Source of the DNA: Carcharhinus amblyrhynchos
Taxonomy: Eukaryota
Direction: 5' to 3'
Length of the DNA stretch: 64,000 bases
Assembly (NCBI GenBank): GCA_965287045.1
Contig: OZ336878.1
Coordinates: 105,772,001 to 105,836,000, forward strand
Part shown: positions 1-60,000 of the stretch, in pieces
How the letters are laid out: each line of letters begins with the position of its first letter
Position numbering within the stretch: the first letter of the stretch is position 1
Program-made: the position numbers

Positions 1-3000
1 TCGTTCTGCAATACTACTGACAATGATGTATATTTGAACACCGTTTATACGTCTGTGTTAACTTCGTGCCGTTTGCGTTGTCGCATGAACAATCACCACC
101 ATAGTTTGTTCTGTGTAATTATTAAGTATACCTTTTCTGTAAGACTGCTTGTGTTTTAGAAAGATCAATGCTGCTTGAAACAATTTTGCGCCTTCTACTT
201 TACTTGATGTATCAAATCCGAAAGTGGTGCATTGTTTTTCAACCTTCTGTTCAGCATCATTCGAATAAAGTAGGAAAGCATGAGCAGAGTATTCAGGTTA
301 TGAACTGTGCAGCATATCTCCGTCTTTCTATCGATCTATTATCTGGCTGTTTATCTGACTGTTCGTCTATCCGTGTATGTAGATGTCAATTACTTGTATT
401 GTTTTTTTTAGTCTTTTTTTAAAATTTGGTTTAGCGAGACATGTAGTGCATATATTGGCGTTTTTTGAAGCAAGTGCATGCTATGTTCTCACAAGGTTGA
501 ATGTTGTGGGGGGGGGGGGGGGGATTCATTTTCCATTCTGAAAACTGTGTTTATAGAAACAAGAAAAGTTTATATTAAGAGAGACAAACATGCTCACCAA
601 TATCTTTCCGAATTATTTGCAATTCCTTTAATTCTAAAATAAAACAGCCAAATTTGTATATATTGTGTTTGTAAGTCAAACCACATTCACCACTAATTTG
701 CAAAACTATCCTAAACTACCTGCAGGAAAACGACAGGGGGAATGAACGGAAAATGTGTTTCGTGGTGGAATCACGCTGAAGCTGCTGTAAATGGCGGAGG
801 ATTCTGCTTTGCAAGTAGAGGCTTGTGCGGTCACATGTGAGGCCAAGGGGAAACGTTCCTTCTTCGAGGAGTTTAAATCGGGGAATGGGGGTAAATTAGA
901 TACAGTAAAAAGTCTGACAACACCAGGTTTAAGTCCAACCGATTTATTTGATAATACTCACAAGCTTTCGAGGGGACTGCCTCTTCGTCAGGTGAATGGA
1001 ACTCTCCATTCACCTGACGAAGAGGCAGTCCCCTCGAAAGCTTGGGAGTATTATCAAATAAATCGGTTGGACTTAAACCTGGTGTTGTCAGACTTTTTAC
1101 TGTGTTTACGCCAGTCCAACGCCGGCATTCCCACATCGTAAATTAGATGGTCAGGGGTTTCAAAACTATTGCGGGTTTCTGATCTGCTTATTATCGGTTG
1201 AAGCTCGGATTTGTCGTTTTGGAAACTTGGGTCACCTGATGAAGAATATTTCCAGTTGGTTTGTGATCTACGTGTAGAGTTGGGCTGTAGTGGTGATTGC
1301 ACGGGCAAATTCTATTTGAATTCGGAGATTGGGAGAAGTTGGCGATATTATTTGGGAGAAGCCATAGAGATGTGGTTTACATTGAGCGAGAGGGGCGTTT
1401 GGAGTTTCCTGGGGAATCTCGAATGTCTGACGAATCACATGCCTGAATTGACCTTGGCGCTGCAAGCAGCTGGATGGATGCGAGTAAAGATTGTATTTTT
1501 TATCACAGTTTTCTTTGTAATTCTTAGCGTAACTCTGTTGAAACAATCAAAGTTAAAGATTTTCAGATGTGCCGGGGGAGGTACGAGCATTAGAAGACGT
1601 AATTGGACACTCAAACGTATCAATACTTGCAAAATACAAGAAGCAAAATTGGAAAGCACCATCAAATATTCAGCATAATATGAACATGTGAAACAGTGTA
1701 CGACAGAAAACGCAAAAAAAAGCAGATATTAAGGTTTCGAATCAAATGATCACAAAATAATTGGAGGTGACATCAAATGAAGCATTGGGAAAATAAAACA
1801 TACGCCGTAAGTGTTAAAATTAATGGAAGACACTTAGCGCATCCTCGTTGGGCAGAAAACAGAAAGATAAACGGTGATAATTATTAGCTCATCTTTCGTA
1901 TTCGTGTAAAATTTAAATTATGCGTGTGTTTTTGTTGTTGGTGGCAGAAATGGCGGCGGGTTAATTGGTAGCACACGGGGCGGAATATTTAGTGTCGTTT
2001 CCCTATTCCAGTGGACATCTCCCCCACAGATATATTCTATGACTGAATTTGCAGATCATTGCGTTTGTTCTTGTTTATAGCATATGAATTACCTAACCTC
2101 GTTGTTTTTATCTATCACTGATGAATGGTGATCCAGATGAATTATTAACTTTGTTTCTATCTGCAAGGGCACGGCAAGATCTAAAACGAACTTCCAGTCC
2201 CTTCCATGTAATATTTCGGAAGTGTCTAATCTTGGATTATAACTGCGTTCTTATTCAATTTTTTTTCAGCAGAAAAAAAAGTGCTCACCAGTTTTAGAAT
2301 GCAAAATCCGTTCTTCTGAAGATAAACAAACAACACTAAACAATTGGAATGAATATATTACAAGAATGCACTTAGAATTTAACCTGTTACGAACATTAGT
2401 ACTGTAATATCACACGTATCTCTGTTTTACTACTTAATGCCTATTTTCCAGCACTTATTTCTTGCCACGAATTAGTACTTATGTACGTTTTGAATGCGTT
2501 ATTTATTTGTCCTGAAATGCATGATCGCATCTAATTTTACTGGAAGTAAAATGATGCTCCTGATAAATATTTCCTCGTGACGTTCCATGATTTAGTCTTA
2601 AAATTAAGCCCAACATTTCGTTTTGAGAAATAAAAGCAAGCCGGCTTTCTACATAATACGTGCAAACGTTTGAACAGCTGCATTTACTGCAATTTGTTTC
2701 GGTTAGTGATGAGCTTGAAGAGAAAAGCCGCATAACATCCCACGAAGGCGATATACAATCACAGTGAAAATTCATTTCAACAAAATGTAGGCTTTATAGG
2801 TGTATCCTGTGAAGGAAATGGCATTTCATTACCTAGACGACTTGAGAAGAGTTATATCCTCCAACGAATGAATGTTAATTCAAATCAAGAATTGTCCATG
2901 ACAATGTGGTGATTCCATGCATTCATGATTCTCTCTCAAAGTCCTGTATAATTGGTAATGATTACACTATTTTTACACAATTCTCTCACTGGTTTAGTGG

Positions 3001-57000: not shown

Positions 57001-60000
57001 TGTCGTTGTTGGCGTCCGAATGAGGGCAAGACAAAAAAAAAATCCAAACATAGGTAGCTTTGGTTTTTTTTTAACAAATATCAACATTTGCAATTATTTT
57101 TTACATGAATGACCCGCACTTACATCTGTCAAATATTTACAAAAGCGTTGATAACTCGTTATCTTCACACGCACACATCCTGCCATGCAACTTCACATGC
57201 TAATACAATCGCCAGTTCAGAGCTAATACGTAATATTGAAGAATTCATCTCGAAGTGAGAAGCGAACGTGTTTTTCGCTTTTAGCAAGGCGGCATTCCAA
57301 TGAGCCTCAGCTAACAAATATCCTGTTGCATTTAGAAAGTTGGAATCGCAACGATACACAGACCTCGTGAGGTCTGAGTATGCCCGGGGCCAGCAGCAAA
57401 AGCCATACAGGTGCATCTATTACCAGTGCAATATTACTTACATTTCATGTTTTGTGGCAGTTATCAAAACACATTTGTCAAACAGCTCCGCCTCATATCG
57501 GGGTGTGCTTGTTCTGATATAGCAAGTACTAAATCGATATTTGAGCTGTTTTTAACGGTTCATTATTGTTTCCAATAGTTAATTACTCATATCAAAAACA
57601 TATATTTAGAATAGGGACGGTATCCGATCCAGACTTCGTAGGCTGTGTGTTTTAACATTCGCAAACGATACCGACAGCTAGAAAGTTTAACTGTCGTGAA
57701 CTGCAATTAAATGAGCTCCTAAATAGAATGTCATGTTGGTATGTGTTATAACTCTTCCTTTCGTTCAGTTCTGTAATTGCATCATTTACCGATTTTTTTT
57801 TTCAAACAAGAAGCCACTCACCCACTGTCTTAGCACGCAACTTTTGTTCTGCAATAGAACGTAAAATAGTTGGTGCGCATAATAATGAAAAAAAAACAGA
57901 AGAAATGAAAATGTATCACCTATGCTATGAACACCATGCTTAATGATAAAATGGTGATGGACGGTAACCGCTTCTGTCTGTTTTTGCTGTAGGCTTAGTA
58001 GTGAAAGAAACGTTTTTTTTCTCACAAATAACAATTCACCTTTGCATGTGATTTAAATAATATTGGTTTTGCAATCTCAGACTTTTAAATTGTTGATGGT
58101 TACCCTGTCGTAATATTTGTTGGGAATGAGTCCCCCGTTGCCGCACATTTCATTTGGTTCCAGGGCTTGGAAAATTACATCTGCTTACCCATTCCCTAAT
58201 TCGTCACCAATTGTCTGCTGCAATATTTAGTTGAAAACACGGATTATTAAAACTGTGTTTCCTGATATATTTCCACTTTGTTACTGCCTACTCAAGAGAT
58301 CCTGCACCGCTAAAGAAACGGACTGCTCCTTACCAAAATCTAATAGCGTCTGGCTTTCTGAAAATGACAATTAGAAAATAATTTTAATCGAAATTGAAGA
58401 CACACACTGTTAATATTCGCATATATTTTGACCTACGTAAGGTGACCCTGGTGCATTACATTCAATAAGACATATTCCCCGGGATGCCAGAAGAAAATTA
58501 TGCAAATGCCTAAACATTGCTTGGGCACTGTGGAACTTTTTTTAAATTTACCTGTGAACATGAAAAGGATGAAAAATCTGAAGCGGCGGGAATTGTTACG
58601 CTTTATGCATCCGATGCTCCTTGCATACCAATCATTGTTGTTCAACAAAGAAACCCAACTTCTCAAAAAAATCCTAATCGTGTGTCAATAATTAGTTAGG
58701 ATTGGTGGGCGCGAATTTCGGTGGCAGCCTATCATAATATATATAAAAAAAGTTCGCTTCAGCTGTTTCCAAGCGAATTGCTGACACTGCTATGCTGTAC
58801 TGAGATAACATTGCTGGAGTATGTAGGTGTGAAAACAGCAAAACACATCGCTGGGCGTGTGAGCATGAAGAGAGCCCACAGAAGCGTATCACCCCTTCTT
58901 TTCTTGTCGGCTTCCCTGAATATGTTGTCGCCACCTGTTCTGCCCGCTCTTAATGTCTTATATTCTTCAACAGCCCCATGGATCTGCGAAGTGTCCAAGT
59001 GCTGCAGATATCGTTTTTGTTCCCAAACCATCTCGCATTACTTAGAAGGCGCACAAACGAGTTTTGCTGCTGTCAGGATTTCTAGTGCTGACTGTCACTT
59101 TGTTTAGTCGGCAAACGTGCACTGACTGAAGGAAGTCACATAGTGAACTAATTGGTCCAAATAGCAGTCGTTTTCTCTGTCAGGCAGCTTTCCTTTGTGT
59201 AGGGGCGGCTGCCAGGATTTCACATCTCGGCGGGATGGTGGAAGGTGAAGCCGTTTATTGTTCCTCCAAATCCAGCCACCCGCCCGTAAAATGCAGCCCG
59301 TACAATTCTGAGGTTTATCTCACTATCAACACAATAGTTTCAACAATGAGTTCAATCTGGAAGACGGGTGATTTCGGGCAACCTATGGTTACTACCGCTT
59401 TAAAATTCATTGTGATACCTTACAAAGACGGCATACATTTTACAATCCCATGATATTGAAACATAATGGCATCGAGCATTCTACAGGCTCTTGCGTCCTG
59501 CACAGTTATTTCTAACTGCAGAATAAGGATTCGTTGTTTTTTTGTTGAATTTTGTAGAATAAATTGATCCAAGCAATCGATAGTCAAATAGTTTTACAAT
59601 CCAATAAGTTCAGTTCGCCATTGTTTAGAAGGTTATATGCTGAATAAGCAGATCAATCTCATCATTATACTGGCATTGAAATTTCTTGCAATCAAAAATT
59701 GTCATTTCCAGTGAAAAACAATAAACTCATATTTTCAAGAATGCTTTCCATTCAAAACGCAGGAACTGACAGATTAATTAACAATGTTTCGCAAAAGCCA
59801 TCGACGGAATGGTAACTTCATAAGATGTTGTTAAATTGGTCTAAACCAATTGTCCGTACGTGTTAATTCAAATAGAAGGTTGCTCTCAGTTGTTTGTTTT
59901 AATGCAGAAGAACAATACGACCCAATAATATTAATAGTAGAAAAAATGTTTGGAAGCTAATGTTAGCTTTGTTATTCAAAGAAAAAAAAGGTTCAATTAT

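What the first reader, a model, noticed from the sequence alone, without database searches (positions are those of the whole stretch)
598..58357. 17-exon super-repeat and nested triplet repeat in exon order
Seen: exons 1-7 (58357-41740) and exons 18-24 (15532-598) share the size string 24-27-36-27-27-27-36 and pairwise peptide similarity. The pairs are EQKLRAKTV/DKYLRQKIT, ELENVKRDLQSK/ELDHANEALQSA, EDELRRRDV/EKQLKKKES, EMKTHLETD/DFLEHVKVD, EEKIHKLKA/EERILHSKT and EQDTLQAIRKDL/ELKELQIIRKDI. Short introns match too (177 vs 144 nt), and the pattern predicts an acceptor ~570-590 nt past exon 24, which is present at positions 6-7. Within the unit a triplet [27 - 36 - spacer] recurs (exons 10-12, 13-15, 16-18). 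Inference: the protein grew by tandem exon-block duplication at two scales. Introns diverged beyond visible similarity while exon length and frame were kept, implying long-term selection on coil register.
[Added by the scan's program, not by the reader: the finding's places include an assembly gap (unread letters, written N; its length is only estimated) at 30880 to 31059. Whether the letters on both sides are continuous or in frame is not known: test that first.]
Basis: partly seen in the sequence, partly recalled or inferred. Interest (0 to 1): 0.75.

Follow-up and report, generated by a model that had tools for sequence, protein, structure and literature searches.

The report
Mini-exon coiled-coil gene, duplicated exon block
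This is part of one vertebrate (probably shark or ray) gene that spells out a helical rod protein in about two dozen tiny exons, and one run of six exons occurs twice, which is an old internal duplication of a familiar kind.

Summary
The exon series is real. On the minus strand there are 21 well-supported, 2 weaker and 1 unsupported exons of 24, 27 or 36 nt. All are phase 1, and nearly all junctions rebuild a Glu or Asp codon. A filter for such exons gave 23 phase-1 candidates, against 1.8 expected by chance and 4 on the other strand.

The six-exon run 27-36-27-27-27-36 (57848-41740) recurs at 14742-598. The pairs share 19 of 54 residues, against 16% for other same-size pairs. A permutation that keeps exon sizes gave P = 1e-4.

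The "17-exon" period is not established:
- Only about 1.4 periods are visible.
- The 24-nt "exon 18" scores 1.3 bits in my splice and composition model and shows no likeness to exon 1.
- The N gap lies in an 8.5-kb intron that could hide exons.

The "triplet" is better described as a family of four 36-nt exons, each preceded by a 27-nt exon (27+36 nt = 21 residues = 3 heptads).

Hydrophobic residues keep one heptad phase across exon borders, so the product is a coiled-coil rod. Introns share only transposon copies.

The gene could not be named. Every exon is shorter than the search tools' minimum, and the joined search was left out. This is a known kind of evolution (nebulin-like block duplication) in an unusual mini-exon gene.

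The parts
58334..58357 (-). exon 1, 24 nt, phase 1
   Evidence: Scores 21.5 bits in a splice+composition model that was not trained on it. No random candidate reached 20 bits in 10 simulations.
57822..57848 (-). exon 2, 27 nt; block A member 1
   Evidence: Leave-one-out score 26.6 bits. Pairs with exon 19: 3 of 8 residues identical.
52329..52364 (-). exon 3, 36 nt; block A member 2
   Evidence: Leave-one-out score 23.1 bits. Pairs with exon 20: 4 of 11 identical, rank 7 of 28.
43638..43664 (-). exon 4, 27 nt; block A member 3
   Evidence: Leave-one-out score 20.2 bits. Pairs with exon 21: rank 10 of 91.
43434..43460 (-). exon 5, 27 nt; block A member 4, after a 177-nt intron
   Evidence: Leave-one-out score 21.7 bits. 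Pairs with exon 22: rank 5 of 91.
42866..42892 (-). exon 6, 27 nt; block A member 5
   Evidence: Leave-one-out score 15.8 bits. Pairs with exon 23: rank 12 of 91.
41740..41775 (-). exon 7, 36 nt; block A member 6
   Evidence: Leave-one-out score 23.8 bits. Pairs with exon 24: 6 of 11 identical, rank 1 of 28.
41140..41166 (-). exon 8, 27 nt
   Evidence: Leave-one-out score 21.0 bits.
38747..38773 (-). exon 9, 27 nt (weak; an alternative donor at 38759 would make it 15 nt)
   Evidence: Leave-one-out score 3.8 bits. The 15-nt variant scores 17.3 bits.
37220..37255 (-). exon 10, 36 nt; central 36-nt family
   Evidence: Leave-one-out score 19.9 bits. Family of exons 10, 12, 14 and 17 is the best 1 of 70 subsets.
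36829..36855 (-). exon 11, 27 nt
   Evidence: Leave-one-out score 19.1 bits.
33758..33793 (-). exon 12, 36 nt; central 36-nt family
   Evidence: Leave-one-out score 17.9 bits. Family test.
30880..31059 (.). assembly gap (180 N) inside the intron between exons 12 and 13
   Evidence: Not filled and not looked up.
25217..25243 (-). exon 13, 27 nt (moderate support)
   Evidence: Leave-one-out score 10.0 bits.
22491..22526 (-). exon 14, 36 nt; central 36-nt family
   Evidence: Leave-one-out score 32.2 bits. Family test.
22061..22087 (-). exon 15, 27 nt
   Evidence: Leave-one-out score 21.5 bits.
20508..20534 (-). exon 16, 27 nt
   Evidence: Leave-one-out score 15.1 bits.
20030..20065 (-). exon 17, 36 nt; central 36-nt family
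   Evidence: Leave-one-out score 20.0 bits. Family test.
   Evidence: Scores 1.3 bits (acceptor 0.6, donor 8.4, composition -7.7). Its 8 residues would keep the heptad phase between exons 10-17 and 19-24.
14716..14742 (-). exon 19, 27 nt; block B member 1
   Evidence: Leave-one-out score 20.1 bits.
5683..5718 (-). exon 20, 36 nt; block B member 2
   Evidence: Leave-one-out score 23.4 bits.
5063..5089 (-). exon 21, 27 nt; block B member 3
   Evidence: Leave-one-out score 21.7 bits.
4892..4918 (-). exon 22, 27 nt; block B member 4, after a 144-nt intron
   Evidence: Leave-one-out score 18.5 bits.
2289..2315 (-). exon 23, 27 nt; block B member 5
   Evidence: Leave-one-out score 27.3 bits.
598..633 (-). 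exon 24, 36 nt; block B member 6
   Evidence: Leave-one-out score 28.0 bits.
1..5 (-). first 5 nt of a probable exon 25, cut by the window end
   Evidence: Acceptor scores 9.4 bits and the exon starts with AA. The intron would be 592 nt.
46800..50685 (+). CR1-type LINE in intron 3, antisense to the gene, with an open 895-codon frame (47900-50587); 5' limit approximate
   Evidence: Pfam RVT_1 at 2.2e-33 plus endonuclease domains. Relatives listed. 3' end taken from the self-match.
17743..19420 (-). second, truncated copy of the same LINE, in the intron after exon 17
   Evidence: 93.8% identical over 1681 nt. RVT_1 fragments.

Best explanation
The window holds about 58 kb of a single gene on the minus strand of a non-human vertebrate, probably a cartilaginous fish.

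Structure. The gene encodes an alpha-helical coiled-coil rod in mini-exons of 9 and 12 residues. Every exon is a multiple of three and lies in phase 1. Nearly every junction rebuilds a Glu or Asp codon (G|AA, G|AG, G|AT).

Origin. The rod grew by duplicating exons and blocks of exons. A six-exon block (27-36-27-27-27-36 nt, 60 residues) is present twice, 43 kb apart. Between the copies lies a run in which a 27+36-nt pair (21 residues, three heptads) recurs about four times. The duplications are old. Introns share nothing except later transposon insertions, and the exon pairs are 35% identical in protein.

What has been kept is exon size, phase and order, and a hydrophobic seam that runs on in the same heptad phase across exon borders.

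Shown: the exons, their symmetry, the block similarity and the heptad continuity. Inferred: that all exons belong to one transcript, that the product forms a coiled coil, and that the whole 16- or 17-exon stretch (162 or 170 residues) is the unit that was duplicated in tandem.
For: - Exon series. 23 phase-1 candidates of 27 or 36 nt on the minus strand, 19 of them in my model. Expected 1.8 in 30 Markov simulations (maximum 6), 4 on the plus strand, and 2 each in the other two frames.
- Exon model. 20 of 22 trained exons score 15 bits or more when left out, and exon 1 scores 21.5 bits untrained. Random sequence gives 0.8 candidates per 64 kb at 15 bits or more.
- No hidden exons. No further phase-1 candidate of 12 bits or more in any intron, except one 15-nt site.
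- Block duplication. Offset 17 has the highest mean pair score of all offsets (11.6). The six pairs sum to 88 against 20.6 +/- 18.2, P = 1e-4. 19 of 54 residues are identical, against 16% in 113 other same-size pairs.
- Matching details. The two shortest introns fall at matching places. A good acceptor lies at the predicted place at the window's end.
- Helical composition. 0 Pro, 0 Cys, 0 Trp and 1 Gly in 200 whole codons; K 18%, L 16.5%.
- Hydrophobic positions. Position 4 in 11 of 14 27-nt exons. Positions 2, 5 and 9 in 6, 7 and 6 of the 8 36-nt exons.
- Heptad phase. Constant through exons 2-9 and through exons 10-24.
- Host. The best named relatives of the intronic LINE are Chiloscyllium punctatum (66% identity over 43% of the query) and Mobula birostris (55% over 93%). 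Birds and Xenopus reach 40-46%.
Against: - No transcript, orthologue or protein match supports the model. No exon is long enough for any protein search tool, and the joined model was not searched.
- Exon 18 is unsupported (1.3 bits). Exons 9 and 13 are weak (3.8 and 10.0 bits left out).
- Exons 1 and 18 are not alike.
- Nucleotide identity of the pairs is not distinctive: ranks 11, 16, 25 and 41 of 91, and 5 and 6 of 28. Splice-site flanks are at background level.
- The whole-chain heptad signal is only modest (period 3.5: P = 0.028 and 0.058; period 7: P = 0.048 and 0.033). It is not significant over exons 2-24 taken as one stretch (25 of 58, P = 0.16), because of a one-residue slip.
- Nothing resembling the central 36-nt family was found in the 5.6 kb upstream of exon 1.
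Confidence: 0.75

Rival explanations
1. The two blocks belong to two neighbouring paralogous genes made by a gene duplication, not to one gene with an internal repeat.
For: Only six or seven exons of the second copy are visible. Exon 18 is doubtful, and a 5.3-kb stretch without a supported exon separates exons 17 and 19. No transcript evidence was available.
Against: Ten phase-1 coil exons of the same style fill the space between the blocks. All junctions stay in frame without a stop. The heptad phase of exons 10-17 continues into exons 19-24 if 8 residues lie between them. Exon 19 has an ordinary internal acceptor and no start context.
Confidence: 0.08
2. There was no block duplication. The likeness of the pairs is what any two coiled-coil mini-exons of equal size show, and the shared size order is chance.
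For: All 27-nt exons look alike: several pairs outside the offset outrank the claimed pairs, such as exons 2/8 and 19/21. A run of 7 or more size matches at some offset occurs in 20% of shuffles. Nucleotide identity is not distinctive.
Against: Permuting peptides among exons of the same size controls for composition and still gives P = 1e-4 for the six collinear pairs. The best of all 28 pairs of 36-nt exons is exon 7 with exon 24. The shortest introns and the next acceptor also fall in step.
Confidence: 0.12
3. The mini-exons are not a gene at all but chance AG...GT open frames, or a dead gene.
For: No homology or expression evidence could be obtained. 13 of the 17 open frames tested had no Pfam family, and the 4 that did are LINE reverse-transcriptase or endonuclease frames.
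Against: 23 candidates against 1.8 expected, confined to one strand and one phase. Consistent splice signals, helix-type composition and a heptad seam. No in-frame stop at any junction.
Confidence: 0.03

Closest known systems
Nebulin (NEB) super-repeats and its triplicate region
   Same: A long repetitive rod or ruler protein gene in which a block of consecutive exons was duplicated in tandem, keeping exon sizes and phases. PMC9109913 describes eight exons repeated three times (seen: search listing and start of abstract).
   Different: Nebulin exons encode modules of about 35 residues, not heptad coils (recalled). Its triplicate copies are nearly identical, introns included, whereas here introns share nothing. 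No sequence relationship was tested or claimed.
Titin PEVK exon-block duplications
   Same: Many small symmetric exons and tandem duplication of multi-exon blocks (recalled from the literature, not from any call).
   Different: PEVK exons are about 75-90 nt and encode proline-rich disordered spring sequence (recalled). Here there is 0 Pro in 200 codons and a heptad pattern.
Fibrillar collagen and elastin genes (mini-exon, symmetric-phase genes)
   Same: Runs of exons of 27, 36, 45 or 54 nt that are multiples of three, so that exon gain or loss keeps the frame. Elastin introns are all in phase 1 (recalled).
   Different: No Gly-X-Y pattern and no Gly/Val/Pro-rich sequence here: 1 Gly and 0 Pro in 200 codons. 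The fold is helical coiled coil, not triple helix or elastomer.
Exon-phase symmetry as a driver of modular evolution
   Same: Symmetric exons allow duplication and shuffling without frame loss (PMC3632108; seen: search listing and start of abstract).
   Different: That abstract links exon-phase symmetry with intrinsic disorder. Here the symmetric exons encode an ordered heptad seam that crosses exon borders.

Membership tests
Alpha-helical coiled-coil (heptad) rod protein | Hydrophobic residues at a and d positions with a period of 7 (3.5) residues over long stretches | tested here: met
   13 of 19 (exons 2-9, P = 0.01) and 24 of 39 (exons 10-24, P = 0.0005) L/I/V/M/F residues lie in one a+d phase pair, against exon-order shuffles. 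Power at periods 3.5 and 7 is above shuffles, P = 0.03-0.06. There is one slip of one residue.
Alpha-helical coiled-coil (heptad) rod protein | Helix-compatible composition (few Pro/Gly, many charged residues and Leu) | tested here: met
   0 Pro and 1 Gly in 200 codons; K 18%, L 16.5%, D 9.5%, R 7.5%, E 7.5%, plus a Glu or Asp at nearly every junction.
Alpha-helical coiled-coil (heptad) rod protein | Helical, oligomeric structure | not testable with these tools
   Fold tools need 30 residues or more from one unbroken stretch. The exons are 8-12 residues long, and the joined model was left out.
Tandem exon-block duplication (nebulin-triplicate type) | The same order of exon sizes and phases in both copies | tested here: met
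   6 of 6 for the 27/36-nt exons (7 of 7 if exon 18 is counted), all in phase 1.
Tandem exon-block duplication (nebulin-triplicate type) | Exon-by-exon sequence similarity above that of non-corresponding exons | tested here: met
   P = 1e-4 at protein level. At nucleotide level the pairs are not distinctive.
Tandem exon-block duplication (nebulin-triplicate type) | Similarity of the introns between copies | tested here: not met
   A self-BLAST finds only transposon copies and small repeats, none collinear. 40-nt flanks are at background level. This is expected if the duplication is old.
Tandem exon-block duplication (nebulin-triplicate type) | The whole unit repeated head to tail (two or more full periods) | tested here: inconclusive
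   Only about 1.4 periods lie in the window. No exon-17-like exon was found within 5.6 kb upstream of exon 1. Exon 25 is cut after 5 nt.
Collagen-type mini-exon gene | Gly-X-Y triplets | tested here: not met
   1 Gly in 200 codons.
CR1-type non-LTR retrotransposon (the intronic insert) | Apurinic-type endonuclease plus reverse transcriptase in one frame | tested here: met
   Exo_endo_phos and Exo_endo_phos_2 hits plus RVT_1 in the 895-codon frame. The CR1 label rests on the bird, frog and shark relatives and on recall, not on a classifier.
Any named vertebrate gene family for the coil protein | Significant sequence match to a named protein | not testable with these tools
The other protein tools need 20-30 residues. 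The joined search was left out, and no eukaryotic genome collection is on hand.

The most novel reading that the evidence does not exclude
This may be an undescribed giant coiled-coil protein of cartilaginous fish (or of vertebrates more widely). Its rod would be encoded entirely by symmetric 9- and 12-residue mini-exons arranged in a super-repeat of about 162-170 residues, while the heptad seam is kept across exon borders. Such a rod could change length in evolution, or by skipping 27+36-nt exon pairs (21 residues, three heptads), without losing frame or register. That would make it a coiled-coil counterpart of the nebulin and titin ruler or spring genes.
Probability: 0.2. Interest if true: 0.55.

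Novelty: new member of a known kind. Interest (0 to 1): 0.35.

Why it matters
If the model holds, this is an unusually clean case in which exon architecture and protein periodicity can be read side by side. The exon sizes (9 and 12 residues) are not heptads, yet the hydrophobic seam runs through them, and 27+36 nt makes exactly three heptads.

It would show that a coiled-coil rod can be built and lengthened by exon-block duplication, as nebulin, titin PEVK and the collagens are. It also gives a testable prediction for splicing: only exon pairs, not single exons, can be skipped without breaking the register.

It does not open a new category. Block duplication of symmetric exons is well known.

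Tried and rejected
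- Exon-by-exon protein search. 
- Structured RNAs and simple repeats. Rfam gave 0 matches, tRNA search 0 and tandem repeats 0, so the pattern is not explained by any of these.
- Other genes. 13 of 17 long open frames have no Pfam family. The other 4 are LINE frames (3 carry reverse transcriptase, and the full-length one also endonuclease domains).
- Literature. Three searches for a coiled-coil gene with 27/36-nt exons or symmetric heptad exons found nothing relevant. That covers only the open-access library searched and is no proof that none is in print.
- Intron-length correlation between the blocks: not significant.
- A 36-nt candidate upstream of exon 1 (60250-60215) scores under 4 bits, and a 27-nt candidate (62211-62185, 15.7 bits) has a hydrophobic, non-coil translation. 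Neither was taken into the model.
- Human origin. I do not take the contig for human. It holds a near-intact CR1-type LINE whose nearest named relatives are shark and ray proteins.
- Not available. No related eukaryotic locus could be fetched.

Full report
WHAT THE WINDOW IS

The window is 64 kb at about 40% G+C, with one run of 180 N at 30880-31059. It has no tandem repeats, no Rfam family and no tRNA gene.

An open 895-codon frame at 47900-50587 on the plus strand carries endonuclease and reverse-transcriptase domains. A second, truncated copy at 17743-19420 on the minus strand is 93.8% identical over 1681 nt.

Among 1138 significant relatives of that frame, the best named ones are:
- Chiloscyllium punctatum: 66% identity over 43% of the query.
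- Mobula birostris: 55% identity over 93% of the query.
- Birds and Xenopus: 40-46% identity.

I therefore take the contig to be from a non-human vertebrate, probably a cartilaginous fish. This rests only on the transposon. I do not take it for human.

THE EXONS

All exons are 24, 27 or 36 nt long and in phase 1. In 19 of the 23 junctions the last G of one exon and the first AA, AG or AT of the next rebuild a Glu or Asp codon. The other four give Asn, Gln and Ala (twice). No junction gives a stop.

Controls:
- A fixed filter finds 23 candidates of 27 or 36 nt in this phase on the minus strand, and 19 of them are in my model. The other two phases give 2 each, the plus strand gives 4, and 30 Markov simulations give a mean of 1.8 and a maximum of 6.
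- A position-weight and composition model gives 20 of 22 trained exons 15 bits or more when each is left out of training. Random sequence gives 0.8 candidates per 64 kb at that level.
- Exon 1, which was never in the training set, scores 21.5 bits.
- Two exons are weak. Exon 9 scores 3.8 bits, and an alternative donor would make it 15 nt. Exon 13 scores 10.0 bits.
Its donor is good, its acceptor poor, and its translation is Gly/Ser-rich and unlike the coil exons.
- No intron holds another phase-1 candidate of 12 bits or more, except a 15-nt site 63 nt upstream of exon 4, which I did not accept.

My size order for exons 1-24 is 24-27-36-27-27-27-36-27-27-36-27-36-27-36-27-27-36-24-27-36-27-27-27-36.

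THE GAP

The N run lies inside the 8514-nt intron between exon 12 (ends 33758) and exon 13 (starts 25243), 2.7 and 5.6 kb from those exons. Nothing exon-like abuts it.

Every exon is symmetric, so the reading frame is the same on both sides whatever the gap holds. The heptad phase of the hydrophobic residues is also the same on both sides. Any hidden exons would therefore have to add up to a multiple of seven residues, or there are none. The exon count across this intron is not known.

THE LARGE REPEAT

Exons 2-7 and 19-24 share the size string 27-36-27-27-27-36.
- Among all same-size pairs, the six corresponding pairs rank 5, 7, 10 and 12 of 91, and 1 and 7 of 28.
- Their summed BLOSUM62 score is 88. 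Permuting peptides among exons of the same size gives 20.6 +/- 18.2, P = 1e-4.
- Offset 17 has the highest mean pair score of all offsets (11.6). Offset 2 is next at 9.9.
- 19 of 54 residues are identical, against 16% in the 113 other same-size pairs.
- The two shortest of the 23 introns (177 and 144 nt) sit at corresponding places.
- The window ends 5 nt into what looks like exon 25. Its acceptor scores 9.4 bits, a level reached by only 35 AG sites in 64 kb. It starts with AA and lies 592 nt after exon 24, against 573 nt after exon 7.

Results that count against the claim:
- At nucleotide level the pairs are not distinctive: ranks 11, 16, 25 and 41 of 91, and 5 and 6 of 28.
- Their splice-site flanks are at background level.
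- Exons 1 and 18 are unrelated (7 of 24 nt identical).
- Intron lengths do not correlate overall (rho 0.39, P 0.38).
- The size match alone has P = 0.002 at the stated offset. A run of seven or more size matches at some offset occurs in 20% of shuffles, because 27-nt exons are so common.
- A self-BLAST finds nothing collinear between the introns of the two blocks.

I conclude that a block of six exons was duplicated long ago. The figure of 17 exons is not secure. It becomes 16 if exon 18 is not real, and more if the gap hides exons. A tandem super-repeat also cannot be shown from 1.4 periods. No relative of exon 17 was found in the 5.6 kb upstream of exon 1.

THE SMALL REPEAT

The 36-nt exons 10, 12, 14 and 17 form one family: their mean pair score is the best of all 70 four-member subsets. 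The 27-nt exons that precede them are not significantly alike as a group (462 of 1001 subsets score as well).

The pattern 27-36-27 fits my exons 9-11, 13-15 and (with exon 18) 16-18, but not 10-12. The simpler description is a two-exon unit of 27+36 nt, which is 21 residues or three heptads, with extra 27-nt exons here and there.

WHAT IT ENCODES

The 200 whole codons of the 22 exons hold no Pro, Cys or Trp and one Gly. Lys is 18% and Leu 16.5%. Hydrophobic residues sit at position 4 in 11 of 14 27-nt exons, and at positions 2, 5 and 9 in 6, 7 and 6 of the eight 36-nt exons. Exons 7 and 24 use 5, 8 and 12 instead. That explains why MAFFT aligned these two exons three columns out of step with the others.

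Counting residues cumulatively along the exon order (no joined sequence was printed, searched or folded):
- The hydrophobic residues keep one a/d phase pair through exons 2-9: 13 of 19, P = 0.01 against shuffled exon order.
- They keep another phase pair, shifted by one residue, through exons 10-24: 24 of 39, P = 0.0005.
- The second result holds only if 8 residues lie between exons 17 and 19. Without exon 18 it falls to 15 of 39 (P = 0.81).
- That is indirect support for a 24-nt exon there, but a one-in-seven coincidence would do the same.
- Over exons 2-24 as one stretch the signal is not significant (25 of 58, P = 0.16), because of the slip.

The product is best read as a two-stranded-type coiled-coil rod with occasional register breaks. 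The 26% content of L, I, V, M and F (61 of 238) fits a hydrophobic seam rather than a single charged helix. That last point is my inference.

HOW IT MOST LIKELY AROSE AND WORKS

Symmetric phase-1 mini-exons can be duplicated, lost or skipped without a frameshift. The gene grew by such duplications at the level of exon pairs and of a larger block.

Selection then kept exon size, phase and the hydrophobic seam, while introns diverged and took up transposons. One example is the LINE in intron 3, which accounts for nearly half of its 8.7 kb.

Skipping a single 9- or 12-residue exon would shift the heptad by 2 or 5, whereas skipping a 27+36 pair would not. This predicts constitutive splicing or pairwise skipping. 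These steps are inferred and were not shown here.

COMPARISON WITH WHAT IS KNOWN

The closest analogy is the tandem duplication of exon blocks in genes for long repetitive proteins.
- Titin PEVK block duplications and collagen and elastin mini-exon genes are cited from recall only.
- Exon-phase symmetry as a promoter of modular evolution is described in PMC3632108 (seen: search listing and start of abstract).

The case here differs in three ways. It encodes a heptad coil rather than actin-binding modules, a proline-rich spring or a triple helix. The copies are old. And the structural period crosses exon borders.

I could not test membership of any named gene family. Three literature searches found no description of such a gene, which covers only the open-access library searched.

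VERDICT

This is a new member of a known kind: internal exon-block duplication in a repeat-protein gene. Its mini-exon coiled-coil architecture is uncommon and neat. Interest 0.35.

Noticed in passing
window 46800-50685 (+) and 17743-19420 (-): There are two copies of one CR1-type LINE, 93.8% identical over 1681 nt. One has an uninterrupted 895-codon endonuclease and reverse-transcriptase frame, which suggests recent activity in this genome. A third, degraded fragment (67% identity) lies at about 13265-13609.
   Followed up: partly
window 897-1108: A near-perfect palindrome sits in the intron between exons 23 and 24: two 104-nt arms, 97% complementary, 4 nt apart. It may be a small foldback or MITE-like element.
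   Followed up: no
window about 40650-40900, 55200-55450, 15840-16090: Three diverged copies of an interspersed, SINE-like repeat (64% mean column identity). From recall only, its conserved core resembles an element abundant in shark genomes. ARAGORN finds no tRNA-like head.
   Followed up: partly
window 508-523, 12396-12410, 51347-51386, 17995-18034: Long homopolymer runs (G on the plus strand at the first two places, C at the others) lie next to repeat ends. One sits about 75 nt downstream of exon 24 within the intron.
   Followed up: no
window 62185-62211 (-): A 27-nt phase-1 candidate exon 3.8 kb upstream of exon 1 has a strong acceptor (13.3 bits; total 15.7 bits) but a hydrophobic, non-coil translation. 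It could be part of a different region of the same protein.
   Followed up: partly
window 8001-12000 and 44001-52000: Both stretches have strong positive GC skew (+0.27). The second coincides with the LINE. The first is unexplained.
   Followed up: no
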